A stretch of 64,000 bases of DNA from Flaccisagitta enflata (taxonomy: Eukaryota). The stretch is taken from the NCBI GenBank assembly GCA_965153355.1, contig OZ231126.1:26660001-26724000 (forward strand), read 5' to 3'. Under the pieces are notes generated by a model. That model made no database searches and was not told the DNA's origin. It saw nothing but the letters and a program-made list of their open reading frames with translations. A program made the translations under genes and the position numbers. This document shows positions 11,624-57,846 of this stretch, piece by piece (within the stretch, counting starts at the first letter, position 1; each line of letters begins with the position of its first letter).

Positions 11624-11847
11624 AACAAGGCCGGATACACGGCTACCCCAGTGGCATGCGGGTGGGTAGGAGCAGTGCTGGAGAAGGTAACTTGGGCATC
11701 TGGGCAGGAGCCGTATGCTCAAAAAGCTCAAAAACGCCGAAAAAGTAAAAAGGCGAACAACCGACAAACCAACCAACCAAACGACCGACCAACCGACCGA
11801 TGGACCGACATAGCGGGGTGTAGAGTCGCGTAGCACGCGACTAAAAA
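11624..11847 (-). mobile_element. HINE family C, complete
   Basis: Minus strand begins TTTTTAGTCGCGT-GCT-ACGCGACT (hairpin), has a (GGTC/GGTT) microsatellite and ends GCCG-TGTATC-CGGC hairpin plus CTTGTT. Relatives at 42001-42201, 54719-54815 and 24600-24632. Confidence 0.8.
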
Positions 11848-13275: not shown

Positions 13276-13329
<54 letters not shown>

Positions 13330-13343
13330 GTGTGTGTGTGTAA

Positions 13344-13432
<89 letters not shown>

Positions 13433-13933
13433 AATAAGTCCGTCAATCTGATAGTTTTAGTTAAATACACGCAACTCTATGATAAGGTTTGTTTGTCCAT
13501 TTGTCCGTCTGTTGGTTCGATGGTTTGTGTTTTTGATACTTTTTGTAGGTGTGTGTAAGGGGGGGGGGTTGGGATGTGGATGAGGTTTGGACGCCCCTAC
13601 CCACCCATCCGCTAGGACATTGTGACCCTGCGTCACTCTCTCCCTCACCCACTCTCCTTTCCCCTCCCATTTTTCCCAAAAAGCGCTAATCCAAGTTGAA
13701 ATATTTTTCTTTTCTCTGCTGGGAGGGGAAGTTTAAGGCCTACGTTTTGAAATGCAAGTGTACACGCTAATTTCATAATAACAAAAAATCAAGATTTTGA
13801 TGGTTGGAGAGCATTTCAACATTGATTAGTATTTGGCGGATCTTAACTGTCACCCTTCATTCAATTGTCAAATTGTCAGTCTCAGTCACTTATCTCTCAG
13901 TATCTCCGTCTCTATCTGTCACTCTCTCACTCT

Positions 13934-17884: not shown

Positions 17885-19096
17885 ATGACAGAAGATGAGC
17901 TAGCTATCTCAGATGTCATAGCTGATGACTTAAAAAACTTTTGCAATGTTTATACAGATGCTACAGATAAAGATGAGGGACATAATCTCACACTCAGTGA
18001 CAGTCTTTATTACACAGGAACTGAATTTATAGATTTAATCGATAGTAGGAACTTTAGTGATAGGCAAAACCTGACCATTATATCAGTAAATATTGCTAAC
18101 CTCCTGACTAAATTACGCTCATTGAAACTGTTCTTACACAACATTACAACTCCTGAAAATACACCCGACATTATAGTAGTTGTTGAAACTCACCTGACAA
18201 CATTAACAAAAGCTGGCTATACTGAAGTAGAGTTAAGATCTATAATCCCTGGATATGAATTTTTCCACAAAGAGCGAAAAAATAGAAAAGGAGGGGGAGT
18301 TGGAATATTTGTAACAGAACGTCTGAGCAATAAGGTTAAAATTCTTGATCAAATTGGCATTTCTGAAGAGCACTTTGAGAATCTGATCCTGCAAATTCCC
18401 AACTGTATCTCAACTGGCAATATCATCTACAAAAAAGACTTAACATTAGCTGCTGTTTATAGACCACCAAATGGCTGCAACTATGATGCATTTAACTCAG
18501 ATTTAGAAAGCTTCTACAAGTATTTGACAGAAACAAAAATGAAGTGGTGCTGACTGGTGATTTTAACTTAGACTTGTTAAAATATGAAAATCACTTACCA
18601 ACTGCAAACTACATTGACCTTGTTATCAATCACAAATTATTGCCACGTATAGTTCGACCGACAAGAATAAAAAAACAAAGTGCTACCTTAATAGATCATA
18701 TATTTACAAAGGATGAAAGTAACCACCTAGTTAGTGGCATAATTGATGTGGAAATTGCAGGAACCTCTGGCTACACAGATCATCTACCAGTATTTACTAT
18801 TTTACAGACACAAGCAGACAAAAATAGGAAAAAAGAAATAATCTTTAAGTCCTTTTTTACAAAACAAGATAGTGAGGCTAGAAGAGAAAAATTGAGACAA
18901 GAAGACTGGAATAGTGTTTATGAACAAGATGACCCTAACATAGTCTATGACATGATACAACAGAAGTATGGACAACACTATCATGATACTATTACCATGA
19001 CAGCACATAAAAAAGGATCTAATCGCTACAAACGGGAACCATGGATGACTATGGATATACTGGCTGACATAAGAAGAAGAGATAGGTTAGCAAAAC
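17885..19096 (+). pseudogene. LINE ORF2 N-terminal apurinic-like (APE) endonuclease domain, frameshifted near 18540
   Basis: Motifs ISVNIANL, DIIVVVETHL, KGGGVGIFV, AVYRPP, LTGDFNLD, PTRI..ATLIDHIF and TDHLPVF across ORFs 17885-18553 and 18544-19116. Confidence 0.92.
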
Positions 19097-21210
19097 AACA
19101 AGGCCAACACCTATAAGTCGCGTGCAGGACAAAAATAACTGAACTGACCTGACTCCTTATTGTATCTTTTTATTGAAAATCAGACTTAAACGCAACCCAA
19201 AAAGACACAAACCAGACTCAAACCAGACTCAACGGAGACTCAAACCAGAATTAAACCAGACCGAAACCAGACCTAAATCAGACATAAATCAGACATAAAC
19301 CAGACATAAACCAGATTTAAGCCAGACTCAAACCAGACTCAAACCAGACTCAAACCAGACTTAAACCAGACTGAAACCAGGCTCAAACCAGGCTCAAACC
19401 AGGCTCAAACCAGGCTCAAACCAGAACCAAACCAGACTCAAACCAGACTCAAACCAGACTCAAACCAGAATTAAACCAGACCAAAACCAGACCAAAACCA
19501 GACCTAAATCAGACCTAAATCAAACATAAACCAGACAAAACCAGACATAGACCAGACCTAAACCAGACCTAACCCAAACCTAAACCAGACATAAATCAGA
19601 CATGAACCAGTCTTAAACCAGACTTAAACCAGACTTAAACCCGACTTAAACCAGACTTAAACCATACTTATCATTAGTATCATTTTTACCAGCAGACTTA
19701 AACCATTAGACCAGCAGACTTAAACCATTAGATTTAAACCAGCAGACTTAAACCAGCAGACTTAAACCAGCAGATTCAAACCAGCAGACTTTAACCAGCA
19801 GACTTAACCCATTAGATTTAAACCAGCTGACTTAAACCAGCAGATTTAAACCAGCAGATTTAAACCATGAGACTTTTACCATCAGACTTTACCTAGCAGA
19901 CTTTAACCAGCAGACTCTAACCTGCAGACTTGAACCAGCAGACTTCAACCAGCAGACTTTAACCAAAAATGACCAAAAATGACCAAAAATGACCAAAAAT
20001 GACCAAAAATGACCAAAAATGACCAAAAATGACCAAAATGACCAAAAATGACCAAAAATGATCAAAATGATCAAAATGACCAAAAATGACCAAAAATGAC
20101 CAAAATGACCAAAATGACCAAAAATGACCAAAATGATCAAAATGGCCAAAATGACCAAAAATGACCAAAATGACCAGAAATGACCAAAAATGATCAAAAA
20201 TGACCAAAAATGATCAAAATGACCAAAATGACCAGAAATGACCAGAAATGACCAAAAATGACCAAAAATGACCAAAAATGATCAAAAATGACCAAAAATG
20301 ACCAAAAATGATCAAAATGACCAAAATGACCAGAAATGACCAGAAATGACCAAAAATGACCAAAAATGATCAAAAATGACCAAAAATGACCAAAAATGAC
20401 CAAAAATGACCAAAAATGACCAAAAATGACCAAAAATGACCAAAAATGACCAAAATGATCAAAATGACCCAAAATGACCAAAAATGACCAAATTGACCAA
20501 AATGACCAAAAATCACCAAAATGACCAAAATGACCAAAAATCACCAAAGATGACCAAAAAATGACCAAAAATGACCAGAAATGACCAAAATGACCAAAAC
20601 GACCAAAAATGACCAAAAATGATCAAAAATGACCAAAAATGACCAAAAATGACCAAAAATGACCAAAAATGACCAAAAATGACCAAAAATGACCAAAATG
20701 ATCAAAAATGACCAAAATGACCAAAATGACCAAAATGACCAAAATGACCAAAAATGACCAAAAATGACCAAAAATGACCAAAAATGACCAAAAATGACCA
20801 AAAATGACCAAAAATGACCAAAAATGACCAAAATGACCAAAATGACCAAAAATGACCAAAATTGATCAAAATTGATCAAAATTGATCAAAATTGATCAAA
20901 ATTGATCAAAAATGACCAAAAATGACCAAAATTGACCAAAATGACCAAAATGACCAAAATGACCAAAATGACCAAAATGACCAAAATGACCAAAAATGAC
21001 CAAAAATGACTAAAAGCAACCAATAATTCCAAAAAAACAAAAAAAATGATTCAAAATAACTCCAGACTACCCAAAAAGACGCAAAAAATGACCAAAAATG
21101 ACCAAAATAGCCAAAAATGACCAAAATGACCAAAATGACCAAAATGACCAAAATGACCAAAAATGACCGAAAATGACTAAAAGCAACCAATAATTCCCAA
21201 AAACAACAAC
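19097..21210 (-). mobile_element. HINE family B 3' end followed by a ~2-kb three-tier satellite array (11-bp, 14-bp, 9/10-bp units) inserted in LINE ORF2
   Basis: Begins AACAAGGCCAACACCTATAAGTCGCGTGC (as at 8820 and 14206), then (AAACCAGACTC)n ~19210-19665, (AAACCAGCAGACTT)n ~19685-19962 and (AAAA[A]TGACC)n ~19963-21180. Confidence 0.8.
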
Positions 21211-21305
21211 AAAATGATACAACAAAATGGACAACAAAATAATACTAGACCAAAACAGCACAAAAAAAGGATCTAATCGCTACCGACGGGAACCATGGAT
21301 GACCG

Positions 21306-23290
21306 ATGGACATACTGGCTGACATAAGAAGAAGAGATAGGTTAGCAAAACAAAAACATAGACGCGAGGATTACAAAAAACTGAGAAATGAAATAGTATC
21401 AAAGACCCGCAGAGCAGAACGTGAACACATTTGCCAACAGATTGAAAACAATTATGGTAATATAAAGAAACATTGGAGTGTAATTAAGAAGGCAACAAAT
21501 AAAATGAACAATAAGGAAGATACCCCCAATGAATTCCACTACCAAGGCAACTCCGTAACAAATCCTCAAACTAATGCAGAAAATTTTAATGACTACTACT
21601 CTAAAATAGGAATAGATACTAACAAAAGTGTTGGTGAACCTTCTCATAGCTCTAAACACTATCTTCAAAAGCATAAAGCTAGAAATACTAATTCTCTATT
21701 GTTCAGTAATGTCTCTCACGATGATGTGATACAGGTCTGCAAAAAATTCACACCCAAGACTAGTACAGACTCTGCCGGCTTTCAGCAAAACATCATTCTT
21801 AGTGATATAGATATAATGGCTCCAGTTTTAGCACACTTAGTCAATTGCTCCATGAATACAGGAATATTCCCTGAAAATGGTAAAGTAGCAAGGGTTATTC
21901 CAGTATATAAACTTAAGGGAGACAAACAACTTTATGAGAACTACAGACCAATTTCTCTCTTACCTGTCTTCTCAAAAATCATTGAACGCCTTATTTACAA
22001 CAAGGTCTTTGAATTTCTGGTCCGTTATGAGATTCTGTTTGAGTCACAGTATGGTTTCAGGTCAGGTCACAACACAACTTTATAAAAAACATTGAAAATT
22101 CTATAGAGTCAGGAAACTATGCTATTGGAGTATTTTGTGACCTCAGTAAGGCCTTTGATACCCTAAACCATGAAATTCTGATAAGTAAACTAGAACACTA
22201 TGGCATTCGTGGTACTGCACTCATGTGGTTTGAATCCTATCTAAAAAATCGTATCCAATATGTAGAACTTAATGGATTTAAAAGCAGCTGCTTACCGCTA
22301 AAGACTGGGGTTCCCCAGGGCAGTATATTGGGTCCTCTACTATTCCTGTTATACATAAATGATTTGCCATCGGCCTCAAAATTGAAGTGTGTTATCTTTG
22401 CTGATGACACAAACCTTCTCATTGAAGGAAATGATCTTGGGAAAATGATAGATAGTCTGAATAAGGAGCTAATAGAAATTAGTGACTTCTTCAAGGCAAA
22501 TCAACTTAAGTTAAACCCCAAAAAGACTAAATCAGTCATTTTTAGAAGAAAGACACTCCGACATGACTATGAACAATCTGACATACTTCTTGATGGAGAA
22601 GTCCTGACAGTCAATGATGAGGCCTCATTTCTCGGAATTACAATAGATAGTAACTTGAGCTGGGAAAAACATTGTACAAATGTTGCTAATAAGATTTCAC
22701 GAAACAATAGTGTCATAAATAGAATGAAAAACTTGCTCCCACCCAAAACATTAAAGATACTCTACCATTCATTCATTCAGCCACATGTGCAATATGGCCT
22801 TCCAGCATGGGGAGGTTGCAATGCTCAAAATAGGAAAAGAATTATAAATATCCAAAAGAGAGCCATAAGAACAATTACAAAATCTTATTTTTCAGCACAC
22901 ACTGAGCCACGAATGAAAGAGCTTGGCCTACTAAAATTTAATGATTTGTACGAGCAACAGTGCTTGATGCTAACCCATGACTGTTTTTTTCAAAGAGCAC
23001 CCAAAATGATTACAAACTTAATTAGTAGGCAGAACTCCGAGTACAATCTTAGAGGGCAAGCTCAAAATCCCCTTGATCTTAAAATCCCCAACCTTAAATC
23101 AAGGGCAGCTAGTAATAGCTTCAGTGCCAAAGCTCCAGTGCAATGGAATAATACCCCCATAGAGTTAAGACAAATTGAACAAAAGCCACTTTTCAAGAGA
23201 AAGATAAAAAAGGCGATTCTCAATAGATATGATCACAAAACTGATTGTAACAATCCTAGATGCAAAGATAGAAAACACCACACTACTTAA
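21306..23290 (+). pseudogene. LINE ORF2 reverse transcriptase domain, frameshift/deletion near 22080
   Basis: NYRPISLLPVFSKIIERL, QYGFRSG, CDLSKAFD (22082-22222, frame of next ORF), GVPQGSILGPLLFL, IFADDT, FLGITID..LSW, and a C-terminal CNNPRC. Confidence 0.93.
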
Positions 23291-45594: not shown

Positions 45595-47566
45595 ACGGTA
45601 TTTTACGGCAAAAAATGACACTGAATGATGACGGCTCCACTCAATATTTGGCAAAAGTATGTCCCAGAGCCAAACCATTAGTGTTTGACCCTTTGCCACC
45701 TATTACAGCTGCTTTAAAACATGAACGACCTAAAAAAGTGTGAAAATAGCCATTTTTACGGCATTTTACGGCAAAAAAATGACACTGAACGACAATGGCT
45801 TCACTCGATATTTGGTAAGAATTTGTCCCAGAGTCAAACTATTAGTGTTTGACCCTTTGCTACCTATTAGAGCTCTTTAAAACATTTACGATTTAAAAAA
45901 GTGTGAAAATAGCCATTTTTACGGCATTTTACGGCAAAAAATGACACTGAATGATGTGGCTCCCTCAATATTTGGCAAAGTATGTCCCAGAGCCAAACCA
46001 TTAGTGTTTTACCCTTGGCCGCCTATTACAGCTTGCTTTAAAACATGAACGACACAAACAAGTGTAATAGCCATTTTTACTTATGGCATTTTACGGCAAA
46101 AAATGACACTGAACGACAATGGCTTCACACAATTTTTGGTAAGAATTTGTTGCAGAGCCAAACTATTAGTGTTTGACCCTTTGCTACCTTTTAGAGCTGT
46201 TTTAAAACATTTACACGACTTAAAAAGGTGTGAAAATAGCCATTTTTACGGCATTTCATGACAAAAAATGACACTGATTGATGACGGCTCCACTCAATTT
46301 TTGGCAAGAGTATGTTCCAGAGCCAAATCATTAGTATTTGACCCTTTGATACCTGTGCACAGCTGTTTTAAAACATTTACAACTTAAAAAAGTGTGAAAA
46401 TATCCATTTTTATGGTATTTTACGGCAAAAAATGACACTGAATGATATTGGCTCCTCAATATTTAGCAAGAGTATGTTCCAGAGCCAAATCATTAGTATT
46501 TGACCCTTTGCCACCTATTACAGCTGTTTCAAAACATTTACGACTTAAAAAAGTGTGAAAATAGCCATTTTTATTCTGACATTTACGTAAAAAATGACAC
46601 TGAACGACAACGGCTTCACTCAATTTTGGTAAGAATTTGTTCAGAGCCAAACTATTAGTGTTTTGACCCTTTGCTACCTTTTAGAGCTGTTTTCCCAAAA
46701 CTATTTACGACTTAAACTAAAGAAGTGTGAAAATAGCCATTTTTACGGCATTTCACGACAAAATGACACTGAATGATAGCGGCTCCACTCAATTTTGGCA
46801 AGAGTATGTTCCAGAGCCAAATCATTAGTATTTGACCCTTTGCCACCTATTACAGCTGTTTTAAAACATTTACAACTTAAAAAAGTGTGAAAATAGCCAT
46901 TTTTACGGTATTTCATGACAAAAAATGACACCTGAATGATGTGTCCCTCAATTTTTGTAAGAGTATGTTCTAGAGCCAAACCATTAATGTTGACCTTTGC
47001 CACCTGTACAGCTGTTTTAAAACATTTACGACTTAAAAGAAGTGAAAAGAAAATAAGCCATTTCTGACATTTCTGACAAAAAATGACACTGAACGATGAC
47101 TTGGCTCCTCAATTTTTGTAGAGTATGTTCCAGAGCCAAACCATTAGTATTTGACCCTTTGCTACCTATTACAGCTGTTTTAAAACATTTACGACTTAAA
47201 AAGTGTGAAATAGCCATTTTATTCTGACAAAAAATGACACTGAATGATAGCGAGAATCCATTCAATTTTGGCAAGAGTATGTTCCAGAGCCAAACCATTA
47301 GTATTTGACCCTTTGCTACCTATTACAGCTGTTTTAAAACAATAACGACCTAGAAAAGTGTGAAAATAGCCATTTTTACGGCATTTTACGGCAAAAAATG
47401 ACGCTGAGTGATGACGGTTTCACTTGATCTTTGGTATGAGTATATCTCAGAGCCACACAGTTACTGTATGACCGTTTGCCAACCATAACAACTTTTTTTA
47501 AACATCATTAACCTGAAAAACTGGCAAAAATGCCACTATTACGGAATTTTACGGCATTTTACGGCA
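45595..47566. repeat. Satellite array, ~163-bp monomer, 12 copies
   Basis: ATGAC[A/G]C anchor at 45615, 45779, 45941, 46103, 46268, 46432, 46594, 46763, 46925, 47083, 47234 and 47398. Confidence 0.95.
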
Positions 47567-47890: not shown

Positions 47891-48159
<269 letters not shown>

Positions 48160-48173
48160 TTGCAAACGTTAGT

Positions 48174-48542
48174 TCATTCTTTTCCCTTTGAAAGCGGTTG
48201 ACGAATGATGAGCTTCAATCTGTCAGTCATTTGTGCTGGAGTGAATTGAACGCCACCCTCGGAAAAGTTCCACAGTTTGCCGTCGACGAGCTTCTGTTCA
48301 AGGACTTTCCGTCGATATCCAATTTGAGTCTTGATGGCGTCAATGGTGAGGGCCTTCTTCCCGGTGAATTGTTCCAGTCCGTTGTCGATGTCTTGGTCGC
48401 ATTCCCAAACGCCGCCGAGCTTCTGTAACTTATTGCAGATTTTCAGTTTTTCCGCCGCCTTCTCCCGCTGTCGTCGCTCTTGTTCCGCGCGCTGACGCAT
48501 CAGATTCTCCCGTCGTGTCGCTGCGATCTGCTGCTGTCGCTC
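48174..48542 (-). CDS. Probable terminal coding exon (122 aa) of an unidentified protein, possibly DNA-transposon derived
   Basis: Open, non-repetitive frame ERQQQIAATRRENLMRQRAEQ...GGVWECDQD...IKTQIGYRRKVL...LWNFSEGG...LKLIIRQPLSKGKE*, preceded by a TAG acceptor (48543-48545). GC-rich codons contrast with the AT-rich flanks. Confidence 0.55.
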   Translation of the reverse strand, partial: ERQQQIAATRRENLMRQRAEQERRQREKAAEKLKICNKLQKLGGVWECDQDIDNGLEQFTGKKALTIDAIKTQIGYRRKVLEQKLVDGKLWNFSEGGVQFTPAQMTDRLKLIIRQPLSKGKE

Positions 48543-49593
48543 CTATATTGTAATTCAGTAATTGAGTTGCAAGTGAGTGAATAGAGACACTAATTATGAA
48601 TGCTTTTCTACAAGTCATTTTATCCATCGGTCTGTACGTCCGTCAGTCACAAAAATGATTTTGAGCCATTGGAGGACGATTATTCTACAGTTGAACCCCG
48701 CAATAACAGAGAGTAAGAAACATAACAGACAATAAATCTTGGTTCCATTGTGTAATTAATTTTTTCAATGGCAAAAACACATGCTACAATAATGGACACA
48801 GTTTGTTGGTCCCCTGAAATCCGTTAGTAGTGAGAGAGAGAGAGAGAGCAGACCCAGATTATCCAGCTACCACCACAAAAAACAGGTACTTACAATTTAT
48901 TTCAGCTCCTCTCTACATAGGAAAATGAATATCAATGATTTGAGACGATGGGAGGAATCGAGTTTAGACGGAAACAAAAGGCCCGCGACTTATGCGCAAA
49001 ATGGGCGCAAAATCGACGTTTTGCGCAAAAAGGCGAGAGTGGAGATGGATGACTCGGATGGAAACAAAAGGCGCGCTTCAACGAAATTGGACAATTGAGG
49101 AATGGAGAAAAAAAAGGATCGGCGCGCGCTTCATAACAGACACATAGTGAGTGAGGGCAACATTATGAGCGTCAAAAATAGAAAAACCAGAATACAGTGG
49201 GAAACTGATATAACGAATCGCCGCGAATAAGAGACTCGCACACCTTAATATGTACGCCAAAGGTTCCAGTCATGAAAATTGTAGAGAGACCGAGACACTT
49301 AGACAGAAGGCAATTAACTGACATAGTCAGATAGAGTTTTTGTGAGACTGTACCCGCGTATAATGAATTATCGCAAATAAAAGAATTCTGTACATGACAT
49401 AACTCGATTAATCATTTCTTTACAGCAAAAGCAAGTTTTTATCATTTTTAAAATTTTAGTTTCCACCTTTTGTTTCATTTCTCTCGGGGGTTTGAGTGTT
49501 TAAAAATCTTTTAGAAAATTAAAGGTGGGTGGTCGCTGTTCCGTCTATTAAGGAATTTATATCTGCACACTTGTCTGTGAAATTACGTGCAAA

Positions 49594-49971
49594 ATGAGTT
49601 ATAATGAGACCTATTGGAGTCATTCTCCCTCAGCGACCGAGAATGCAACAATGGAGCAGGCCCATGATAACCCTTGGTACCCTTGGTGGTTGGAAGAGGT
49701 GGTTGGTTGCGCCGCGGCCGCTGTCCTGTTAATCATTTGCATCGTCATAGGGATAAAAAATCCTGTCCTGGCTCGACGCCTGCTGAGCCATGGGCAAGAT
49801 TTTCTCTCAATGATGATGGAAAGGATAAGGAACAGAGGCCACAGGGCACCGCCACCACTTCCACCCCGCAATGGAATCCCGCGCAATTTCACAGATGATG
49901 AAATGATAGAGATGCGAGAATGCGGTCAAAATGGAGGATATGATGCGCCCGCAAGAAGTGTGTGGATATAA
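49594..49971 (+). CDS. Small single-pass membrane protein (125 aa), antisense to the adjacent Gypsy pol
   Basis: CAAAATG start context, N-x-T sequons at N4 and N17, hydrophobic segment V36-I54, basic residues after it, PPPLPPR, YDAP; AATAAA at 50069-50074. Confidence 0.65.
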   Translation: MSYNETYWSHSPSATENATMEQAHDNPWYPWWLEEVVGCAAAAVLLIICIVIGIKNPVLARRLLSHGQDFLSMMMERIRNRGHRAPPPLPPRNGIPRNFTDDEMIEMRECGQNGGYDAPARSVWI

Positions 49972-50123
49972 ATATAGGGGTAATTCAGTTTATGGTAAAA
50001 TGATCATGGTTATTCATTTTCTTTCTACTTTGTACTTCTTAAAAAAAATACAAAAACCAAAAAAAAAAAATAAAAATCATCTTTCCTATAAACTCAAAAT
50101 TGATCATCAAATGGAAAAATAGA

Positions 50124-53100
50124 CTAAACCCACAAATCAGAGATTCCAAAATCAACAAGTGAATCGAGACTATGATTGTTTTTTCCACTATGATGGATGA
50201 AAAGTTTTTCGACGGAATTCACCGAGGCATCATCATTCAATGCCCTGGCACGAGAACGCGTTAAAGCTGGCTCAATCTCTGGCTCACTCAGCTCTAAACT
50301 TACATTCATTGAGTCCACGAGTTTACGTAACTCATCTTCAGTGAGTTTAGTTTTGATCAACACGTCACCTGGGAGAATTTGATGCTCATCCGTCACGACA
50401 CTTCGAACCTTAAATGCATTTGTGGCGACTCGTTCTTCCACCACAAATCCGTCCACAACCACTCTGTGGCCGTATTTCTAAGGCGTCCCGACGGGCCACA
50501 CAGAGCGTTTCTTTAAGACGCAATCACCGCCTTGAGGCGGCGCGTGTAGCCTCGTGGAGATCGCCCTTCTGTCGCCGGATGAACGCAGCTTTCACGCTGC
50601 TTTGGAGAGACGTTGCGCCGGCGGCATTATTGTAGCAGCGACGCAGTCGACGAGCGATTTGGAGACGCCGTCGAGACGCCGTCGGATGCAGAACGAAGAA
50701 ACGAAGTTGGAGGACGCACATAGAAGAGATCACGTGGGAAAGATTCATGGGGAGAGCGTCACATGAGATGCGTTATAGGTGAGCGTGGATTCCTCTAAAA
50801 GACGGGGAAAAGCGATTTTGGACACTCGGTACTGTATTTGACGATGAGACGAGAAATAGTGCCGATAGTTTTTTCAGCACGAGATTGTGATCTGCTGACG
50901 TACGCGTGTCCGTGTGAGATTGAAACATGATGCGAAATCAGAAATTGTTTTGCGCGTGAGTTTTCTTTCAGCAATCCGTTATCGCATTGTATTTTTGAAG
51001 GTAGTCCGGAGAAGTGGCGACGCATATCGAAAACAATCCAAGAATTTCGCGCCAGAGGTCAATATATCGCTGACGCGTGAACGCAAATCGAGACACCGCG
51101 TCAATTGCGACAAAGTATGACGGCGTTCGGCCGGAAGGGGTCTTGAAATTGTTCCACGGGCCACACACGTCCACTTCAACGGTCGATAAAGGCTCAGTCG
51201 CGATTTTGTTGCCATCGTCTTCCTTTCTACAGGTGGGATGATTGTTTAACACACATGCCGAACATGCACGGACGTAAGAATTGATCACCCGCCTCATGTT
51301 GAAAGCGTAGTACTGTCTTTTGAGAGAATCCATGGTCTTTCTTTGACCAATGTGACCGGATGATGATGGTGAGTCGAATGAATGAGTTTCGCCGACAAGC
51401 TTCAAAAATTCATTAGATCCCACCACAATGAGTGGGTCAACGATACCCAACGGATTTAACCAAAATCTGATTATTATGTTTTGGTCTGTTAGGCGGACAA
51501 GTGAACGATGTCTGAGGAAATCTTGCAACGGTGCCGGTAATAACAAAGCCTCAGCCTTGTTCGGAAGCGGCGTCGTTCCCATCAAAAAGTCTCGGCAACG
51601 ATCGAGAATATCGTCGCCGGCTTGAAGGCGACGCACGAAATCCAATCGACTTCCGGAAAAACGCGGCAGTTTGATACTGTCCATGACTTCATTATCCGGC
51701 GGCGAATCATCGTCCTCTTCCACTCTTCCAGCATTTAAATCGTCATCGTCGAGAGAGATGGCGCAAATCGACGTGTGGATCGCCGCGATGGCGCCGGCGA
51801 TGGGCGTCGCCACCGGCGGCGTCGCCGGAAGATCGTCGACGACAATGGTGTATTCGCCGTCGGGCCTAGAAGCATAATCATCCTCCTCCTCCTCCTCCTC
51901 CTCCTCTTCCAACGGTCCGTCGACGGCGTATGATAACGGCTGTCGGCGATGGCGATGAAAAAAGGCGATCATTTCATCGTGTTTCCGCTGGGAAAAGAGG
52001 GATTGCCAAGGCACCTTCTGTCCATGGGCGTTGTAGATCCTTTCCTTCAAAAATTTTGGGTAAGTGCCTGATGGTGCTGGGAGTGATTCTAAGCGTGAGA
52101 ATGGATCAGCAGCTTGCAATCTACTTTCAACAAAGACGATATTAGCCTGAAATTTCTGAATGTGTAGGATCTTACGGGCCAAGTCTTTGGGGACACCCTC
52201 AAGACTGGCCCAGTTAGCTACTGTAGAGCTATCAACGACCACCCAAAAAGCTTTTGCACTGAGCAGATGGCGAAATTTGCGAGTAGCTTCGTAAAGACTG
52301 ATTAACTCGAGCAGCCATATTGGAAAGTTAAGCCAAGAGTCCTTGATGACTGAAGAAAAACACCCTACCACATACAATCTTCTTTTTCCATCATTATCAG
52401 GAGCAGACGATGGAGGAAGCATATATTGCGTCAACAAACACGAGATTGAATTTGACGATGCATCTGTCCATAGCACGAACTGGTCTGAAGGGTCAGAAGA
52501 CTGAAGACGAATGACATTCACTTTCTTATCTTGCAGGTGAGTTATGGCCTTATCAAAAGCCTCCCTGTGTGGGTCAGTGGGCGTGAAACTTACCTTTAAT
52601 TTACACAAACGGCGCAATGGCGCTAAATGCTCAGAGAGCTTTGGCGCCACGCCATTAAAGTACTGCAGAAAGGCTAGGCGCGAGATACACTCATCTTTTG
52701 TGACTGGGAATTTAAGATCTGAAATTTTCACCTCTTTTTCCTTGGAAATTGACAACTGAGATTCACCAATTTGAAACCCTAAGACTCTAGTCGATTTCCT
52801 GACCATATCAGCCTTACTAGGTTTAAGGAGTATCCGATAGTAGGAACAGAGGGCAAAGAATTTGGGAAGATCTTCACAGAGATGCTGTTGAACATTCTCT
52901 GAACCAACAGAACAGTCATCAATGAACGGAAAGACACGCTCGTGAAAGCGCATGGCTTTGCTGATGAAATTTTGGACAATTGGTGGGCTGAGTTTTAGAA
53001 CTTTAGATAAGCGAATGTAACAATAGATCTTATTCATTGCATGAATGCCCAACAACTTAGAACTTTCCTTTGAGACCGGAAACTGGTGGAAGAAGGACGA

Positions 53101-53750
53101 ACAGTCGAAATTACTAAAGGTGGAGTAACCCATTTTTCCCACTTTTTCACGGTATTCATTGCAGTTTGGAAGCGGAAAGGATCTGTCAGCCAGACAAGCA
53201 TTCAATTGGCGCTGGTCTGCAGTTACCCTACTTTTTTCCACCACTGCAATGCGCTAACTGACGAATCTTTGCTCGACGACAAGATGCAAAGGACTTGCGT
53301 AGACGCCGGCGCTGCTGTCCAATTCGGCGATGACGACTGGATCGAGAAGCGTTTTAAGGTGAATTTTGATGTGACGAATTTTCTCATCCGAGAGACGCCT
53401 AAGTTTGTGTTTTTTAGGAGTCATGTCGGGCTTAAGCTTTATCTCGATTGGCTTCATGTTTATCCCCTTCATTAATTGGGCAGGGACAGAAGAGTCAAAA
53501 ATGTGACGGAACTAAAATAGAAGATCTTTGAGTGGGTCCAAATGCTCTTGGGCCAAATCTTTGAAGTTGAATTCAGAAAAAGACTTTATCTTTCCAGGCG
53601 ACAATCATCTGCTTTTTCCTTTTCAGCCTCTAAAATATCATGGGGTCTTCAAGAATTTCCATTTCAACATCGGGTCCATTTTTGTCATCCAATTTCAAGT
53701 CAAAGTCTATACCATCCCAACGGCAACGGTCAAGAACATCATCACCCACC
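50124..53750 (-). mobile_element. Ty3/Gypsy LTR retrotransposon pol (RT-RNase H-integrase), decayed
   Basis: RT: YASPLHLV, FSNFDCSSFFHQF, FPFIDD. RNase H: LWTDAS, LELISL. Integrase: H..GHIG..C..C zinc finger, VEVDVCGP, IQCDNG, SQSRAEK. In-frame TAG at 53254-53256 and ~53512, frameshift at ~51050. Gag, protease and LTRs were not identified. Confidence 0.92.
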
Positions 53751-53764
53751 TTATTCTTCCCAAC

Positions 53765-53960
53765 TATGAGTGGTAGGTTGGTTGGGATGGTTGGTAGGAG
53801 TGGCAGGTTGGTAGGGTTGGCTGATAGGAGTGGTAGGATGGTTGGGTAAGAAGGTAGGAGTGGTAAATTGGTTGGGCTGGTTGGTAGGAGTGGTAGGTTG
53901 GTGGGGTTGGTTGGTAGGAGTGGTAGGTTGGTTGGGTTGGTTGGTAGGAGTGGTAGGGTT
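53765..53960. repeat. 30-bp minisatellite, ~6.5 copies
   Basis: Unit approx. TTGGTAGGAGTGGTAGGTTGGTTGGGTTGG. Confidence 0.85.
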
Positions 53961-55307
53961 ATTTATATTTGAATATTCATCAGTGTCATTATTGCATACA
54001 TCATATGGGGATGTGATACCATATTTATATTTCATATCTTCACCAGACACCATCTCTCTCCTTTCTATTTCCTCCAACAACTCCCTCAAATCATAACACT
54101 CGGCATCATATTGCTGTGAATCATTTGAGTGGCGAACCATTTCACCTAAGATGGTCAACGTTGACATAGTAGTTTTGGGCCTTAGCCAGATTATTTGCAA
54201 CAGGACTAATAGCGGTGTCATGATTCATTTGAAGCTCTCCTTTTTCCCTACCATCTGGGAAGGAAAGAGATGGTATGTATGTTCATGACTAAACTTGCAT
54301 AGAATGCTTACGATTCTAGGTCTTCTATGACTTAGTCTCCCAATGAAATGTCAAACTACCATAAGTTGATCTTTTGCTCATGAATCATGATTCAATCTTT
54401 TGCTCATGATTTTAGTCACTTATTATGAGAGGGTGTATTGGTAGGTCCATTTTAAGGTCCACTAAAAGGTAACCCAAATTTCTGGCTGACATGAAACTGA
54501 ACAAAAAAATTTTATGCCCATCTGTATAGCTGCTTCAGCCAGTCACACTTGTTTTTCATTCATTCTACTATTAATTTTCTTGATACGAGGTCCATTTGTA
54601 TGAACATAGCACTGTTTTCATAGGTGTTGATTCTTCGGTCAGTGTGTTGACAGATCCAATATTTATCACTGTGCATATGATCTTGTTTAATGTTTTTTAT
54701 CAAGTGATGATCAAATCTAACAAGGCCGGATACACAGCTACCCTAGTTGCATGCGGATGGGCAGGAGCAGTGCTGAAGAAGGTCACTAGGGCATCTGGGC
54801 AGGAACCATATGCTAACAGGTCGCCCAAGGGCAATATGTGGTCAGCGATACCCGTTGCCCTGCTTTGAGTGACTTAACTGGGTGCTTTCTTGGTTGGCCC
54901 TGTGATGGTGGTGGTGGTGAGGGTGGTGGTGGTTATGATGTTGGTGGTGGTGGGGTGGTGGTGAGTGGTGGTGGTGGTGGTGGTGTGGGTGGTGTCAGTG
55001 GTGGTGGTGGTGGTGGTGGTGGTGGTGGTGGTGGTGGTGGTGGTGGTGGTGGTGGTGGCAGTGTAAATGGTGGTGATGGTGCTGTGGGGGTTATATAGGT
55101 GGTAATGGTAGGTGGTGTTATACATGGTACTGTGAGGTGGTGACGTGTGTGTCTGCAGGGTGTGCCGAATTACTTTCCTCTTTCATTCATTCTCCGCCTT
55201 TTTACCTGCTGAGGGCTGTCTCTGTGTGAGAGTGTCTCGTTGCTATGTGTGTGTATCGTCGCTCTGAGTGTGTGTGTGTGTGTGTGTGTGTGTGTCTGTG
55301 TGTGTAA

Positions 55308-55397
<90 letters not shown>

Positions 55398-55432
55398 AAA
55401 TAAGTCCGTCAATCTGATAATTTTAGTTAAAT

Positions 55433-57846
55433 ACCGCTTTTGAAAATGAAATAAGACATTGTTATTTTACCCTCTAATTAGCGCCCCCTTTTGATTTGTG
55501 AGCACTCTTTTATCCTATGTCATTCACAATAAATACTTCTTTAGATATCAGAAATGCAAGATTTTATGTGATGTGTGCAACAATTTATTCTACATAAAAC
55601 TCATACAATTATCCAAATAAGAAACATTTAACTTTAAAGAAAATCTGAAAAAATACGGACATTTATATAGTGTAACGGTCTAATATCCGCTAGCCCAAAA
55701 GCTCAATTTTAAGAGTTCTGAAAAAAAAAAATTAACCCGTCTCCAAATTTTTGCATACTAGTCCTAAAAAAGGTGTAGATTAAGAATATCAACTTTATTT
55801 TACCCGATTGCGAGCCGAAAAAATTAGAAACACTTTTTTTGGCCAAAAATGGTGGTTTTTTGAGATAAACAGCATGAAGATACATCTCTGAAGAGGTAAC
55901 ATGCCCTGGTATTGATAAATAATCATCTGCTGAATATTTGTGAGAAATTTCACGAAATTTTGTCAACGTTAAGATGCCTAAAATGCATTATTAAACTCCA
56001 AAAATAAAAAAAATCAGCCTTGATGAAAAGATAATGTCTAAAAGAGCTCATGGGATGTTAGAAATCATGAAAATATACTTCCCCACAAATTTTCAGGCAT
56101 ACCTGATGAATATTGGACGAATTATAACCAAAAAATCAAATTACAACAATATGCAAATGAGCTTTTGGGCGAAAATTGCTAAAAACCCACAAAATCGTTG
56201 TTTCTTGCCAAAATATGATGGTTATAGCTCTGTTAACCTTCTTAAAACCTAGCAAGCTTTCTTTTTATTTATCTAAGCAATTTTTGCTCAAAAACTCATT
56301 TTTGTATTGTAGTAATTTGGTTTTTTGGTTATAATTCGTCCAATATTCATCAATTGTGCCTGAAAGTTTGTGGGGAAGTATATTTTTATGATTTCTAACA
56401 TCTGTGAGCTCTTTTGGACATTATCTTTTTATCAAGTCTGATTTTTGATTTTGAGTTTAATAATGCATTTTAGGCATCTTAACGTTGACAAAATTTCGTG
56501 AAATTTCTCACAAATATTCAGCAGATGATTACATGCCACAGGGCATGTATCTTCAGAGATGTATCTTCATGCTGTTTATCTCAAAAACCACAATTTTTAA
56601 AAAAAAATATTTCTATTAACAGCTTAATAAGCAAAACAAGCTGAATTTTCTACCTTTTTTAGGACTAGTATGCAAAAATTTGGAGACGGGTTAATTTTTT
56701 TTTTTTTTAAAGGGTTTTGGGCTAGCGGATATTAGACCGTAAGCTTCCATTACATACACATACATACCTAATATATGGTTTTTTGAAACGCTATCAAAAT
56801 TCCTCAGGTATATACTTTTTACTAAATGTGTCATATTTCTTCTATTTAAAACAAAATTTTAAGTGTATTTTAAAAAAATATATAAAAAATATTTTAGGGG
56901 AAGGGTATTGTTAGAGCTGTCCTCTGGCATTGATCGGGACCATCAACTCAGCCCAATTTTGGTTAAAATTACCTAACTGAAAAAAAGGAACCAGGGTGTC
57001 CATATCCCCAGCTGAGCCCCTTTATCCTAATTAGGGGGGTGGGAGAAAGGTGAATTTTTACTAAAATTGGTTAAGGTTATAATTACTTCTTAGTGATTAA
57101 AGGGAAAAAGCCTTCATCTTCACAAGAAGATATATCATGGGATGATAGGTCACCATGAGGGGTAAAAGGTTTTGTACATGTCCATGAAAATTAATAAAAA
57201 TTGATATAATTAATATAATTTGATATAATAACAAACCATTCAGCTTCTGGTCATCAGTTGGTGTCCTGTACCCAAAAAAAGGGTTTCGCCCCATATATAC
57301 ATATATATTTAAAATACACATGTATATATTCACCAAGACCCAAGTACAGGTGAGGCACACCTTGAAGGTGTCCTTCACTGCATGGTTTGTAGAATATAGA
57401 AATCATCAGGAACACGCCATGACATCAAAAAGAATATCATGAGTTTTCCCAATTATTTTCAAAATTCTTTATTATAGGAAAAAATCTTTTTTAAAAAAAT
57501 ATATTAGGTATAATAATTAAAACTATAGTAAAACCTAGAAGGTGTTTGGCTATGGTCTGCGACAAGTGGGTCAAAAGATTCTCATAGCCTCCCACCAATA
57601 CTGTTCTCTGAAAAATATTAAAAAACATTAGAGAAATGTTGGAAGATAATAATGTGTCAGAGTACCTTTTTTGTTTGTTTTTTGTTGAAGCTTTTATAAA
57701 AACACTGAAACAAGCACAACTTTTCTATTTTCAAAGATTATTTGCTTCTCTCAAATTATTCATCTTCTTTCAAATCATTTTTCTGAGAAACAAAAAGAGG
57801 AGGGGGGCGCTAATTGGAGGGGGGGCGATAAATGGAAAAAATACGG
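55433..57846. mobile_element. TA-TSD DNA element (CCG...CGG ends) specific to copy B
   Basis: Copy A reads TTAGTTAAATACACGCAA (13457-13474); copy B reads TTAGTTAAATA|CCG...TACGG|TACACGCAA. Subterminal AATTAGCGCCCCC is mirrored at both ends. Confidence 0.75.
55676..56739. mobile_element. 1.06-kb fold-back element with TAA TSD (PIF/Harbinger-type)
   Basis: TAA|CGGTCTAATATCCGCTAGCCCAAAA ... TTTTGGGCTAGCGGATATTAGACCG|TAA; ~480-bp inverted arms. Confidence 0.85.

What the first reader, a model, noticed from the sequence alone, without database searches (positions are those of the whole stretch)
49594..49971. Intact antisense small membrane ORF at the 3' end of a Gypsy element, with a FAST-fusogen-like layout
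Seen: a 125-aa ORF on the strand opposite pol, ending ~150 bp from the integrase stop (50124), i.e. in the position where env or accessory genes sit. It is intact, with CAAAATG context and a downstream AATAAA, whereas pol carries stops and frameshifts. It has no signal peptide and a 35-aa N-terminus with two N-glycosylation sequons and a Trp/Pro-rich membrane-proximal patch (PWYPWW). One TM helix (V36-I54, two Cys) is followed by basic residues and a possible amphipathic helix, a class II SH3 ligand PPPLPPR, a YDAP tyrosine motif and a hydrophobic C-terminus (SVWI). Established: reovirus FAST proteins are ~100-200-aa N-out single-pass fusogens with a polybasic region and tails that recruit actin adaptors via SH2/SH3 motifs, and YDxP fits Nck/Crk-type SH2 preferences. 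Inference: this env-less retroelement may encode a membrane/actin-adaptor protein for cell-to-cell spread or host signalling. It lacks the Gly2 myristoylation site found in some FAST proteins, and its membership in the element is not proven because no LTR was found.
Basis: partly seen in the sequence, partly recalled or inferred. Interest (0 to 1): 0.85.

Follow-up and report, generated by a model that had tools for sequence, protein, structure and literature searches.

The report
Conserved antisense membrane gene beside Gypsy pol
A small gene for a single-pass membrane protein, lying backwards just after the polymerase gene of a dead jumping-gene copy, belongs to a conserved and apparently transcribed protein family, probably an accessory gene of the jumping gene, but nothing tested supports it being a reovirus-like cell-fusion protein.

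Summary
The 125-codon ORF at 49594-49971(+) is there as described. Its length alone is not unusual.

It is a real gene family. There are 18 protein clusters at 62-90% identity, with 238 member sequences, and more distant small proteins share the same layout. Sites are strongly constrained: 52 invariant sites against 13.7 expected. No Pfam, PHROG or PDB relative was found.

The ORF and the Gypsy-like pol lie in one high-copy repeat. In an independent DNA run they have the same depth and the same divergence from the window. In two metatranscriptome runs, contig depth peaks on the ORF at about 44 and 290 times the pol level.

The window copy is a 5'-truncated, frameshifted relic without LTRs. The ORF being intact next to a broken pol is therefore weak evidence (P about 0.5-0.6).

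Best reading: an antisense accessory gene of the kind known from plant and fungal LTR retrotransposons, here encoding an N-out membrane glycoprotein with conserved motifs in its cytosolic tail.

FAST membership fails on acylation, polybasic motif and sequence similarity. The SH3-ligand and YDAP motifs are specific to the close clade. Linkage to the element is supported but not proven.

The parts
49594..49971 (+). Complete single-exon CDS (125 aa plus stop) of a small N-out single-pass membrane protein. Residues 1-35 form an acidic ectodomain with two sequons. Residues 36-54 are the TM helix. Residues 55-125 are the cytosolic tail.
   Evidence: The ORF is. It has 18 homologous clusters, 15 of them with both termini kept. 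Sites are constrained. The AF2 model has helices at 31-55, 57-82 and 101-112, with mean pLDDT 57. No joints were seen in the RNA runs.
49603..49650 (+). Two N-glycosylation sequons of the ectodomain: N4-E-T at 49603-49611 and N17-A-T at 49642-49650.
   Evidence: A sequon within the first 10 residues is present in 62 of 70 close and 42 of 47 distant members. The middle residue of the second sequon varies while N and T are kept.
49849..49869 (+). Proline-rich motif PPPLPPR (residues 86-92), which has the form of a class II SH3 ligand. It is specific to the close clade.
   Evidence: PxxPxR is present in 66 of 70 close but only 8 of 47 distant members.
49879..49917 (+). The most deeply conserved cytosolic motif, P-R-N-x-T-D-D-E-x-I-E-M-R (residues 96-108). 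It is partly helical in the model.
   Evidence: It shows 0.83 changes per site against 5.0 in the neighbouring linker. [RP]NxTD is present in 67 of 70 close and 35 of 47 distant members. The motif is visible in alignment A3.
49939..49968 (+). C-terminal Y-D-A-P-A-R-S-V-W-I. YDAP is clade-specific. The terminal aromatic-aliphatic pair is family-wide.
   Evidence: YDAP is present in 65 of 70 close and 2 of 47 distant members. A hydrophobic C-terminus is present in 65 of 70 and 37 of 47.
49465..49593 (+). Probable promoter-proximal region and 5' UTR of the ORF transcript.
   Evidence: RNA contig depth rises in this bin, from 17 to 70 in X3 and from 33 to 130 in X10. Loose ends of RNA contigs from other copies carry the same CAAAATG start context (table 7). 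The strand and the exact start are not shown.
49972..50084 (+). 3' UTR followed by an A-rich tract (50041-50084) that includes AATAAA at 50069-50074.
   Evidence: The sequence is. RNA depth falls from 123 and 255 to 16 and 8 in the bin 50020-50204. The tract itself was masked by the tool.
48942..49464 (.). Left part of the repeated unit, upstream of the ORF. The edge of similarity to other copies lies at about 48942-49111.
   Evidence: X1 depth steps from 215-703 (48170-48909) to 20,927 (48910-49094). There are loose ends at 48942 and 49047. An X4 contig covers 49111-49512 at depth 14.8 and 4.2% divergence, matching pol.
50124..54173 (-). Decayed, 5'-truncated Gypsy-like polyprotein gene (RT, RNase H, integrase). 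It corresponds to residues 257-1525 of a 1555-aa relative.
   Evidence: Pfam finds RVT_1, RT_RNaseH, RT_RNaseH_2 and Integrase_H2C2. tblastn gives frames -3, -1, -2, -1, -3. There is an in-frame stop near 53257. No LTR was found.
53768..53957 (.). A 30-bp tandem repeat (6.3 copies) that interrupts the polyprotein region of this copy.
   Evidence: One search reports the repeat. It lies between the two upstream tblastn pieces.

Best explanation
**What it is.** The ORF is a real gene carried, in antisense, in the stretch 3' of pol of a high-copy Ty3/Gypsy-like retroelement. The host is a marine plankton animal, possibly an arthropod, though that is only a lead. The gene is an animal counterpart of the 'aORF-3R' antisense additional ORFs described in plant and fungal LTR retrotransposons.

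**Shown here**
- The protein family is conserved and constrained.
- The ORF is a complete, unspliced coding unit.
- Its region shares copy number and divergence with pol in an independent DNA sample.
- RNA-library contigs pile up on it and not on pol.

**Inferred**
- It is transcribed on its own from a start about 0-130 bp upstream of the ATG, and the transcript ends at or before the A-rich tract.
- The product inserts N-out without a signal peptide and is N-glycosylated on its short acidic ectodomain.
- It leaves the ER through its C-terminal aromatic-aliphatic pair.
- It works as a membrane-anchored adaptor. The family-wide cytosolic motif P-R-N-x-T-D-D-E-x-I-E-M would dock host factors; its T-D-D-E has the form of a casein-kinase-2 site, which is recalled. 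In this clade a PxxPxR motif and a YDAP motif would add to that.
- This would serve the element's trafficking or its spread between cells, much as small retroviral accessory membrane proteins do.

The window copy itself is a dead relic.
For: **The family is real and old**
- There are 18 clusters at 62-90% identity holding 238 member sequences, 233 of them in the 14 clusters whose representative keeps both termini.
- A profile search of 1.84 billion representatives gave 13 hits. Among them are 66-150-aa proteins at 20-48% identity with the same order of sequon, TM helix, basic pair, helix, P-R-N-x-T-D motif and hydrophobic C-terminus.

**Sites are constrained**
- Among 58 intact members plus the window, 284 parsimony changes leave 52 of 125 sites unchanged. 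A codon-neutral model expects 13.7, with a maximum of 23 in 2000 simulations.
- W8, W32, W124, M1 and M107 never change.

**DNA-level signs of coding**
- The three listed contig pieces that lie wholly in the ORF have 57 substitutions and 0 gaps in 553 nt.
- The four listed pieces in the upstream flank have 74 substitutions and 49 gap letters in 1351 nt.
- The only indels listed inside the ORF are 3 nt long (2 of 2).
- 4 of the 6 listed variants in the ORF are synonymous.

**Same repeat as pol**
- In DNA run X4, mean depth is 18.6 on the ORF bins and 18.5 on the 19 pol bins, against about 1 to the left of 48910.
- Divergence from the window is 4.2% for 49111-49512 and 3.8% for 3124 nt of pol.
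- In X1, depth is about 17,000 on the ORF and 30,000 on pol, against about 420 on the left flank.

**RNA**
- ORF bins average 98 in X3 and 206 in X10. pol bins average 2.25 and 0.71.
- The peak sits on the ORF and does not rise towards either end.
- 10 and 12 distinct RNA contigs cover position 49675.
- There are no joints in the RNA runs.

**Precedent**
- Antisense aORFs between pol and the 3' LTR, present in most copies and of unknown function, are described for Grande, RIRE2, Retand, PvRetro13 and Boty (PMC7264820, passages read).
Against: - No contig was seen to bridge the ORF and pol in another copy. Contigs on both sides stop at the A-rich tract.
- This copy has no LTR, so 'inside the element' is not shown.
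- No nucleotide copy could be fetched. Four collections gave nothing usable and no genome is held. No dN/dS could therefore be computed.
- The protein database holds no close pol of 396 aa or more, the best being 50% identical, while it holds 238 close ORF sequences, some on contigs of 4.7-7.9 kb. The ORF may therefore often occur without an intact pol of this family.
- In X1 the ORF region has about 0.6 times the depth of pol.
- The RNA runs were chosen because they hold this stretch. Contig depth is a poor measure of expression, the strand is unknown, and both RNA runs come from one study.
- Only called ORFs are in the protein database, so the share of intact copies is biased upward.
- The adaptor function is inference from short motifs alone.
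Confidence: 0.52

Rival explanations
1. Passenger or host gene. The ORF belongs to a host family of small membrane proteins. One member was captured by the repeat, or simply lies in a composite repeat that also contains a pol relic. It is selected, where it is selected at all, for a host function and does nothing for the retroelement.
For: - The distant relatives sit in small clusters of 1-9 members, with one of 33, as low-copy genes would.
- No close long pol is in the database although 238 close ORF sequences are.
- X1 depth on the ORF is about 0.6 times that on pol.
- RNA depth on the ORF is far above pol, as for an ordinary expressed gene.
- Gene capture by LTR elements is known (PMC7264820, passages read).
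Against: - The ORF region is high-copy: X1 depth is about 17,000 against about 420 on the flank, and about 18 against 1 in X4.
- It matches pol in depth and divergence in X4.
- According to PMC7264820, captured genes are usually present in one or a few copies. Here there are 14 intact clusters below 90% identity, 233 member sequences in all.
- No member comes from an annotated genome or carries a name.
Confidence: 0.25
2. Separate retroposed unit. The stretch from about 48942 to 50084 is its own plus-strand retroposon or processed gene copy, made of 5' region, ORF, 3' UTR and A-rich tail. It landed next to the pol 3' end and was then co-amplified, or it is merely adjacent here.
For: - An A-rich tract (50041-50084) follows the 3' UTR on the + strand, like a retroposed poly(A) tail.
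- Contigs from both sides break there.
- LINE-type endonuclease and RT relics are in the window at 17885-23290.
Against: - In X4, depth and divergence are equal on the two sides of the tract. pol-side contigs in X4 and X3 start about 44-45 nt before 50085, so they carry the same tract next to pol.
- No target-site duplication or defined 5' end could be shown.
- An A-rich stretch is also what a normal polyadenylation region looks like.
Confidence: 0.1
3. The protein is a FAST-like fusogen or actin-adaptor that fuses cells so that an env-less retroelement can spread from cell to cell.
For: - Its size of 125 aa is within the FAST range.
- It has a predicted N-out single-pass topology without a signal peptide.
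- It has an aromatic membrane-proximal ectodomain patch and a polyproline motif.
- FAST proteins are defined by such motif sets and not by sequence similarity (PMC12945298, passages read).
Against: - Acylation, described as critical for FAST fusion, has no conserved site. Gly2 is in 5 of 117 members and a juxtamembrane Cys in 3 of 117.
- No member has a polybasic cluster, 0 of 117.
- The aromatic patch, PxxPxR and YDAP are lost in distant members, while the deeply conserved motifs have no FAST counterpart.
- No Pfam or PDB similarity was found.
- Two conserved glycosylation sequons mark the ectodomain.
Confidence: 0.06
4. Chance ORF or pseudogene fragment with no product.
For: ORFs of this length arise about 1.8 times per 64 kb by chance. 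The window copy carries private changes, W28 for example.
Against: Relatives keep the frame and the motifs down to 20-48% identity, and site constraint is strong.
Confidence: 0.03

Closest known systems
Antisense additional ORFs between pol and the 3' LTR (aORF-3R) of LTR retrotransposons: maize Grande, rice RIRE2, Silene Retand, Phaseolus PvRetro13, Botrytis Boty (PMC7264820, passages read; PMC11963269, search listing only)
   Same: The position just 3' of pol and the orientation opposite to gag-pol match. So do the lack of similarity to known proteins, the conservation across copies and the unknown function.
   Different: Those elements are from plants and fungi, while this host is a marine animal. 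Some of those products are nuclear (Grande GENE23) or carry an SMC domain, whereas this one is a 125-aa membrane glycoprotein. The 3' LTR was not found here, so the defining position is only half shown.
Small transmembrane ORF3s of bdelloid rotifer LTR retrotransposons, Vesta4 and Vesta6c (PMC5408684, abstract and section 3.2 read)
   Same: These are animal LTR elements with short non-env ORFs bearing TM segments downstream of pol, of unproven function.
   Different: Section 3.2 places them downstream of pol, as env is in retroviruses, and gives no strand; I take them to be in sense. They are 210-230 aa long with two TM regions, cysteines and coiled coils. No homology to them was tested here.
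HIV-1 antisense protein ASP (PMC8156140, passages read)
   Same: It is a protein encoded on the antisense strand of a retroelement. It is membrane-integrated and carries a conserved PxxP-type motif of unproven SH3 binding.
   Different: ASP is about 189 aa with two TM domains and both ends inside the cell. It overlaps env as an overprinted gene. This ORF overlaps no gene, has one TM helix and is N-out. The two are analogues, not homologues.
Reovirales FAST proteins p10, p14, p15 and others (PMC12945298, passages read)
   Same: Both are 100-200 aa with a small N-terminal ectodomain, one TM helix, a C-terminal endodomain and a possible polyproline motif.
   Different: This family has no acylation site, no polybasic motif, no cystine-loop hydrophobic patch and no sequence similarity. 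Its genetic context is different and its ectodomain carries conserved sequons.
HIV-1 Vpu and Nef as small membrane-bound accessory adaptors (recalled, no call)
   Same: The idea is the same: a short membrane-tethered tail with an acidic, phosphorylatable motif (Vpu) or PxxPxR plus an acidic cluster (Nef) that redirects host trafficking.
   Different: There is no sequence relationship. The likeness is one of layout only and was not tested.

Membership tests
FAST proteins (fusion-associated small transmembrane proteins) | About 100-200 residues with an N-terminal ectodomain, a single TM helix and a C-terminal endodomain | tested here: met
   The protein is 125 aa. A TM window is found in 70 of 70 close and 46 of 47 distant members. 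Residues 1-35 have 0 K/R and the stretch after the TM helix has 3 K/R, which predicts N-out. This is prediction only.
FAST proteins (fusion-associated small transmembrane proteins) | Acylation: N-terminal myristoylation or palmitoylated membrane-proximal cysteines | tested here: not met
   Gly2 is present in 3 of 70 close and 2 of 47 distant members. A Cys within 12 residues after the TM helix is present in 3 of 70 and 0 of 47. C39 and C49 lie in the TM helix and vary.
FAST proteins (fusion-associated small transmembrane proteins) | Juxtamembrane polybasic motif | tested here: not met
   At least 4 K/R within 8 residues after the TM helix occurs in 0 of 117 members. Only a [KR][KR] pair is present, in 29 of 47 distant members.
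FAST proteins (fusion-associated small transmembrane proteins) | Ectodomain hydrophobic patch or fusion-peptide-like motif | tested here: inconclusive
   P-[WY]-W-L-[ED]-E is present in 68 of 70 close members but is not kept in most distant members.
FAST proteins (fusion-associated small transmembrane proteins) | Induces cell-cell fusion | not testable with these tools
   This needs expression in cells.
Antisense aORF-3R of LTR retrotransposons | Opposite strand to gag-pol, downstream of pol | tested here: met
   The ORF is on the + strand at 49594-49971. pol is on the - strand and ends at 50124.
Antisense aORF-3R of LTR retrotransposons | Lies inside the element, between pol and the 3' LTR | tested here: inconclusive
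   There is no LTR in the window. The ORF has the same depth and divergence as pol in X4, and the repeat edge lies at about 48942-49111. No bridging contig was seen and no other copy was fetched.
Antisense aORF-3R of LTR retrotransposons | Present and conserved in most copies of the family | tested here: inconclusive
   233 of 238 member sequences lie in clusters with an intact representative, but only called ORFs are on record. The ORF to pol depth ratio is 1.0 in X4 and about 0.6 in X1.
Ty3/Gypsy (Metaviridae-like) LTR retrotransposon, for the neighbouring element | Domain order RT, RNase H, integrase | tested here: met
   Pfam finds RVT_1, RT_RNaseH and RT_RNaseH_2, then Integrase_H2C2. Relatives also carry rve.
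Ty3/Gypsy (Metaviridae-like) LTR retrotransposon, for the neighbouring element | Long terminal repeats, gag and protease | tested here: not met
   This applies to this copy. There is no direct repeat around pol. The copy starts at residue 257 of a 1555-aa relative. One 1880-aa relative has a weak RVP match, E 8.7e-4 and below the cut-off.
Retroviral or errantiviral env glycoprotein | Large precursor with a signal peptide, surface and transmembrane subunits, and a fusion peptide or heptad repeats | tested here: not met
   The protein is 125 aa with no hydrophobic N-terminus and no Pfam env match. No longer fused form was found (weak evidence).

The most novel reading that the evidence does not exclude
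A lineage of env-less Gypsy-like retroelements in marine zooplankton maintains its own antisense gene for a tiny glycosylated surface protein. That protein lets the element's particles or RNA pass between cells, for example from soma to germline. It would do so either by fusing membranes in a FAST-like but acylation-independent way, or by rewiring host trafficking in a Vpu- or Nef-like way. It would be the first accessory membrane protein of an animal LTR retrotransposon outside env.
Probability: 0.1. Interest if true: 0.9.

Novelty: new variant of a known kind. Interest (0 to 1): 0.55.

Why it matters
Additional antisense ORFs of LTR retrotransposons are known mainly from plants and fungi, and none has an established function. 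A compact animal example would be a tractable handle on what such genes do. This one has a clear membrane topology, sharply conserved short motifs, hundreds of natural variants and signs of high expression in ocean samples. It also bears on how env-less retroelements reach the germline. In addition, it defines a protein family with no Pfam, PHROG or PDB relative that seems abundant in marine plankton sequence data.

Tried and rejected
**Searches for other copies**
- The whole genome is not held.
- Metagenome contigs were scanned with alignment A1 and with P0019, and neither gave a confirmed locus.
- Viral contigs gave nothing with the ORF alignment or with the pol alignment A4.
- Genome contigs gave one locus, L001. 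It is a 25-residue proline-rich match in a bacterial MAG and I rejected it as spurious.

**Searches for fused forms, folds and earlier notes**
- The search for longer fused forms found none, which is weak evidence.
- The Atlas search with P0077 gave no usable hit.
- The Atlas search with the window ORF gave unnamed arthropod clusters at 0.92 and 0.91. I keep these only as a lead to the host.
- Rfam found nothing in the window.
- Earlier notes of the scan had nothing relevant.
- I made no fold search, because a model with mean pLDDT 57 would give meaningless matches.

**Ideas tested and dropped**
- Contig-length coincidence between ORF relatives and pol relatives, as a proxy for co-location, gave no matches. 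Only up to 15 members per cluster were listed, so this is uninformative.
- The X1 joints, including one that goes back from 50005 to 48942, at first suggested a tandem or LTR-LTR junction and internal deletions. 12 of the 18 listed joints have GATC on both sides, counting 50005 to 48942, where the four letters between are GATC. A 13th has GATC on one side only. They therefore look like proximity-ligation junctions and I discarded them. The joint from 50422 to 52157 (side 67, no GATC) may be a real internal deletion in some copies.
- The idea that the ORF lies inside an LTR (TG at 48941, a purine-rich run near 50013-50040) was dropped. The depth of 49111-49512 equals that of pol in X4, where an LTR would be at least twice as deep, and no second copy is in the window.

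**Limits of the RNA evidence**
- Parts of the stretch without RNA cover, several pol bins in X3 and X10, are not evidence of silence.

**Not run**
- No complex prediction was run, because the report claims no binding partner.
Full report
**Observation**

ATG is at 49594 in the context CAAAATG, TAA is at 49969-49971, and the ORF is 125 codons on the + strand. It ends 152 bp from the end of the minus-strand pol, whose stop is at 50124. The described features are all present. They are:
- a hydrophobic stretch V36-I54 with C39 and C49;
- the sequons N4-E-T and N17-A-T;
- the motifs PPPLPPR, YDAP and C-terminal SVWI;
- an AATAAA at 50069-50074 inside an A-rich tract.

Length alone means little. The window holds 14 ATG-ORFs of 125 aa or more, and simulated 64-kb sequences hold 1.8 on average.

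**The neighbouring element**

The minus-strand reading frames carry RVT_1, RT_RNaseH and RT_RNaseH_2, and Integrase_H2C2. tblastn with natural relatives shows that this copy corresponds to residues 257-1525 of a 1555-aa polyprotein. The match runs from 54173 to about 50240 in frames -3, -1, -2, -1, -3. The copy also has an in-frame stop near 53257 and a 30-bp tandem repeat at 53768-53957.

There is no direct repeat around the element and no second copy of the ORF in the window. This is therefore an old, 5'-truncated, dead copy without LTRs. At 5-8 lesions per 4050 bp, a neutral 378-bp stretch stays open with probability 0.47-0.63. 'Intact ORF, broken pol' is therefore not evidence of selection on this copy.

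**The ORF is a gene family**

The word-index search found 18 clusters at 62-90% identity, 71-131 aa long, standing for 238 member sequences. All come from metagenome or Logan assemblies and none has a name. Fourteen cluster representatives keep both termini, and their clusters hold 233 of the 238 members. P0010, P0016, P0017 and P0018 are frameshifted or truncated. Of the 70 close sequences I hold, 58 are intact at both ends.

A profile search of 1.84 billion representatives gave 13 hits. Three belong to the close group (P0014, P0018 and P0071, which is 48% identical) and one, P0078, is a repeat artefact. The rest are proteins of 66-150 aa at 20-41% identity, again unnamed and from metagenomes. 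They share one layout:
- a sequon in the first 10 residues, in 42 of 47 distant sequences;
- a TM helix, in 46 of 47;
- a [KR][KR] pair, in 29 of 47;
- a helix;
- the motif [RP]-N-x-T-D, in 35 of 47;
- a hydrophobic C-terminus, in 37 of 47.

By contrast, PxxPxR is kept in 8 of 47 distant sequences and YDAP in 2 of 47, so both belong to the close clade only.

There is no Pfam match for the ORF or for 10 distant members. There is no PHROG match, no PDB sequence below E 0.08 and no longer fused form.

**Constraint**

On a tree of 58 intact members plus the window, 284 amino-acid changes leave 52 of 125 sites untouched. A model weighted by each codon's share of non-synonymous changes expects 13.7, with a maximum of 23 in 2000 simulations. 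The index of dispersion is 4.0. Changes per site by region are:

| Region | Changes per site |
|---|---|
| P-W-W-L-E-E | 0.5 |
| N-F-T-D-D-E-x-I-E-M-R-E | 0.83 |
| Last ten residues | 0.9 |
| TM helix | 3.2 |
| Linker 110-115 | 5.0 |

The DNA level agrees:
- The three listed pieces wholly inside the ORF have 57 substitutions and no gap in 553 nt.
- The four listed pieces in the upstream flank have 74 substitutions and 49 gap letters in 1351 nt.
- Both indels listed inside the ORF are 3 nt long.
- 4 of the 6 listed variants in the ORF are synonymous, and the 2 others are private to the window (W28 and V51).

These tables are truncated by the tool, and the protein database contains only called ORFs, so the numbers are indicative. 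I could compute no dN/dS, because I could fetch no nucleotide copy.

**Is it part of the element?**

I laid two DNA and two RNA runs on 48170-53700.

In X1, 1801 contigs were laid. Summed depth is 215-703 to the left of 48910 and 5,860-56,566 from there to 53700. The ORF and pol therefore sit in one very high-copy repeat whose left edge of similarity is at about 48942-49111.

X4 is a marine metagenome from a different study. Its contigs differ from the window by 2-6%, so it is an independent copy set. Its figures are:

| Region in X4 | Mean depth | Divergence from the window |
|---|---|---|
| ORF bins | 18.6 | not computed |
| 19 pol bins | 18.5 | 3.8% over 3124 nt |
| Contig upstream of the ORF (49111-49512) | 14.8 | 4.2% |
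| Left flank | about 1 | not computed |

Equal copy number and equal age argue for one unit. They also argue against the ORF region being an LTR, which should be at least twice as deep.

Three things count against a firm conclusion:
- No bridging contig was listed, because contigs on both sides stop at the A-rich tract, which the tool masks.
- In X1 the ORF has about 0.6 times the depth of pol.
- The database has no close pol of 396 aa or more, the best being 50% identical.

The X1 joints that first looked like tandem or deletion junctions lie at GATC sites on both sides, so I discarded them as ligation artefacts. I put the chance that the ORF belongs to the same repeated unit as pol at about 0.75.

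**Transcription**

The two metatranscriptome runs come from one study. Mean contig depth on the three ORF bins is 98 in X3 and 206 in X10. The 19 pol bins average 2.25 and 0.71, and the 500 bp upstream reach 11-33. The DNA run is flat across the same bins. The peak sits on the ORF and does not rise towards either end, so it is not the 3' bias of a full-length element RNA.

Ten contigs in X3 and twelve in X10 cover position 49675, so many copies or taxa contribute. No splice joint was seen. There are several caveats. The runs were chosen because they hold this stretch. Contig depth is a poor measure. DNA may be present in RNA libraries. The strand is unknown.

**How it probably works**

The shown steps are listed above. 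The rest is inference from sequence.

With no basic residue and six acidic ones before the TM helix, and three basic ones after it, the protein should insert N-out without a signal peptide. The conserved sequons, whose middle residue is free to vary, suggest glycosylation of the ectodomain. The AF2 model (mean pLDDT 57) shows a TM helix at 31-55, a second helix at 57-82 and a short helix over the acidic motif at 101-112, and the rest is disordered. That is the look of a tail made of short linear motifs.

The family-wide elements are the P-R-N-x-T-D-D-E-x-I-E-M motif and the terminal aromatic-aliphatic pair. The T-D-D-E in the motif fits the casein-kinase-2 pattern, and the terminal pair resembles C-terminal ER-export signals. 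Both comparisons are recalled and were not tested. The N-x-T inside the tail motif is also a sequon, but on the predicted cytosolic side.

I therefore read the protein as a membrane-anchored adaptor. Its benefit to the element, if any, lies in trafficking or intercellular transfer.

**Comparison with what is known**

The closest described kind is the antisense additional ORF between pol and the 3' LTR. It is known in Grande, RIRE2, Retand, PvRetro13 and Boty, is conserved in most copies, has no database similarity and has unknown function (PMC7264820, passages read). Small TM-bearing ORF3s exist in rotifer LTR elements, but they are longer and I take them to be in sense (PMC5408684, abstract and section 3.2). 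HIV-1 ASP is an antisense-encoded membrane protein with a PxxP motif, but it has two TM domains and overlaps env (PMC8156140, passages).

FAST proteins are defined by an ectodomain, TM helix and endodomain layout together with hydrophobic patch, polybasic and polyproline motifs, and acylation that is critical for fusion (PMC12945298, passages). This family meets the size and topology criteria, fails on acylation and the polybasic motif, and shows no sequence similarity. I do not file it as a FAST protein. A fusogenic activity of another kind is not excluded.

My four searches for antisense or third ORFs in Gypsy-type elements of animals or crustaceans listed no paper describing this family. 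I did not see supplements.

**Verdict**

I rate it a new variant of a known kind, with interest 0.55.

Noticed in passing
window 45595-47556: A satellite array with a 163-164-bp unit, about 12 copies at about 80% identity. It is followed by a (TCTC)n run at 47895-48154.
   Followed up: no
window 48174-48500 (-): A 108-aa ORF with no Pfam match. It lies in a separate, lower-copy repeat: X1 depth is 480-700, and the contigs there differ from the window by about 8-16%. It sits just left of the edge of the Gypsy-like repeat.
   Followed up: partly
window 17885-23290 (+): A relic of a non-LTR (LINE-type) retrotransposon. An endonuclease/exonuclease/phosphatase domain is followed by RVT_1, spread over several frames.
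   Followed up: no
window 53768-53957: A 30-bp tandem repeat, 6.3 copies, read as P-T-T-P-T-N-Q-P-N-Q units in a 156-aa minus-strand ORF. It sits inside the polyprotein region between two pieces that match relatives.
   Followed up: partly
window 54719-55437 and 11624-13472: Another dispersed repeat, 83-90% identical between the two places. It includes (GTG)n and (GT)n runs and bounds the upstream side of the pol relic.
   Followed up: no
pol relatives P0119-P0170: The pol belongs to a little-sampled Gypsy-like clade. The nearest database proteins are only 39-50% identical and all come from marine metagenome assemblies. Full polyproteins are 1555-1880 aa, and typical Ty3/Gypsy proteins match at only 22-23%.
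   Followed up: partly
run X1, laid on window 48170-53700: 12 of the 18 listed joints have GATC on both sides, so this DNA run behaves like a proximity-ligation library. Its joints should not be read as rearrangements.
   Followed up: yes
window 49885-49893 (residues N98-T100): The invariant cytosolic motif contains an N-x-T sequon that is kept in 9 of 10 distant representatives, although the predicted topology puts it in the cytosol. Either it is not a glycosylation site or the topology needs an experimental check.
   Followed up: partly
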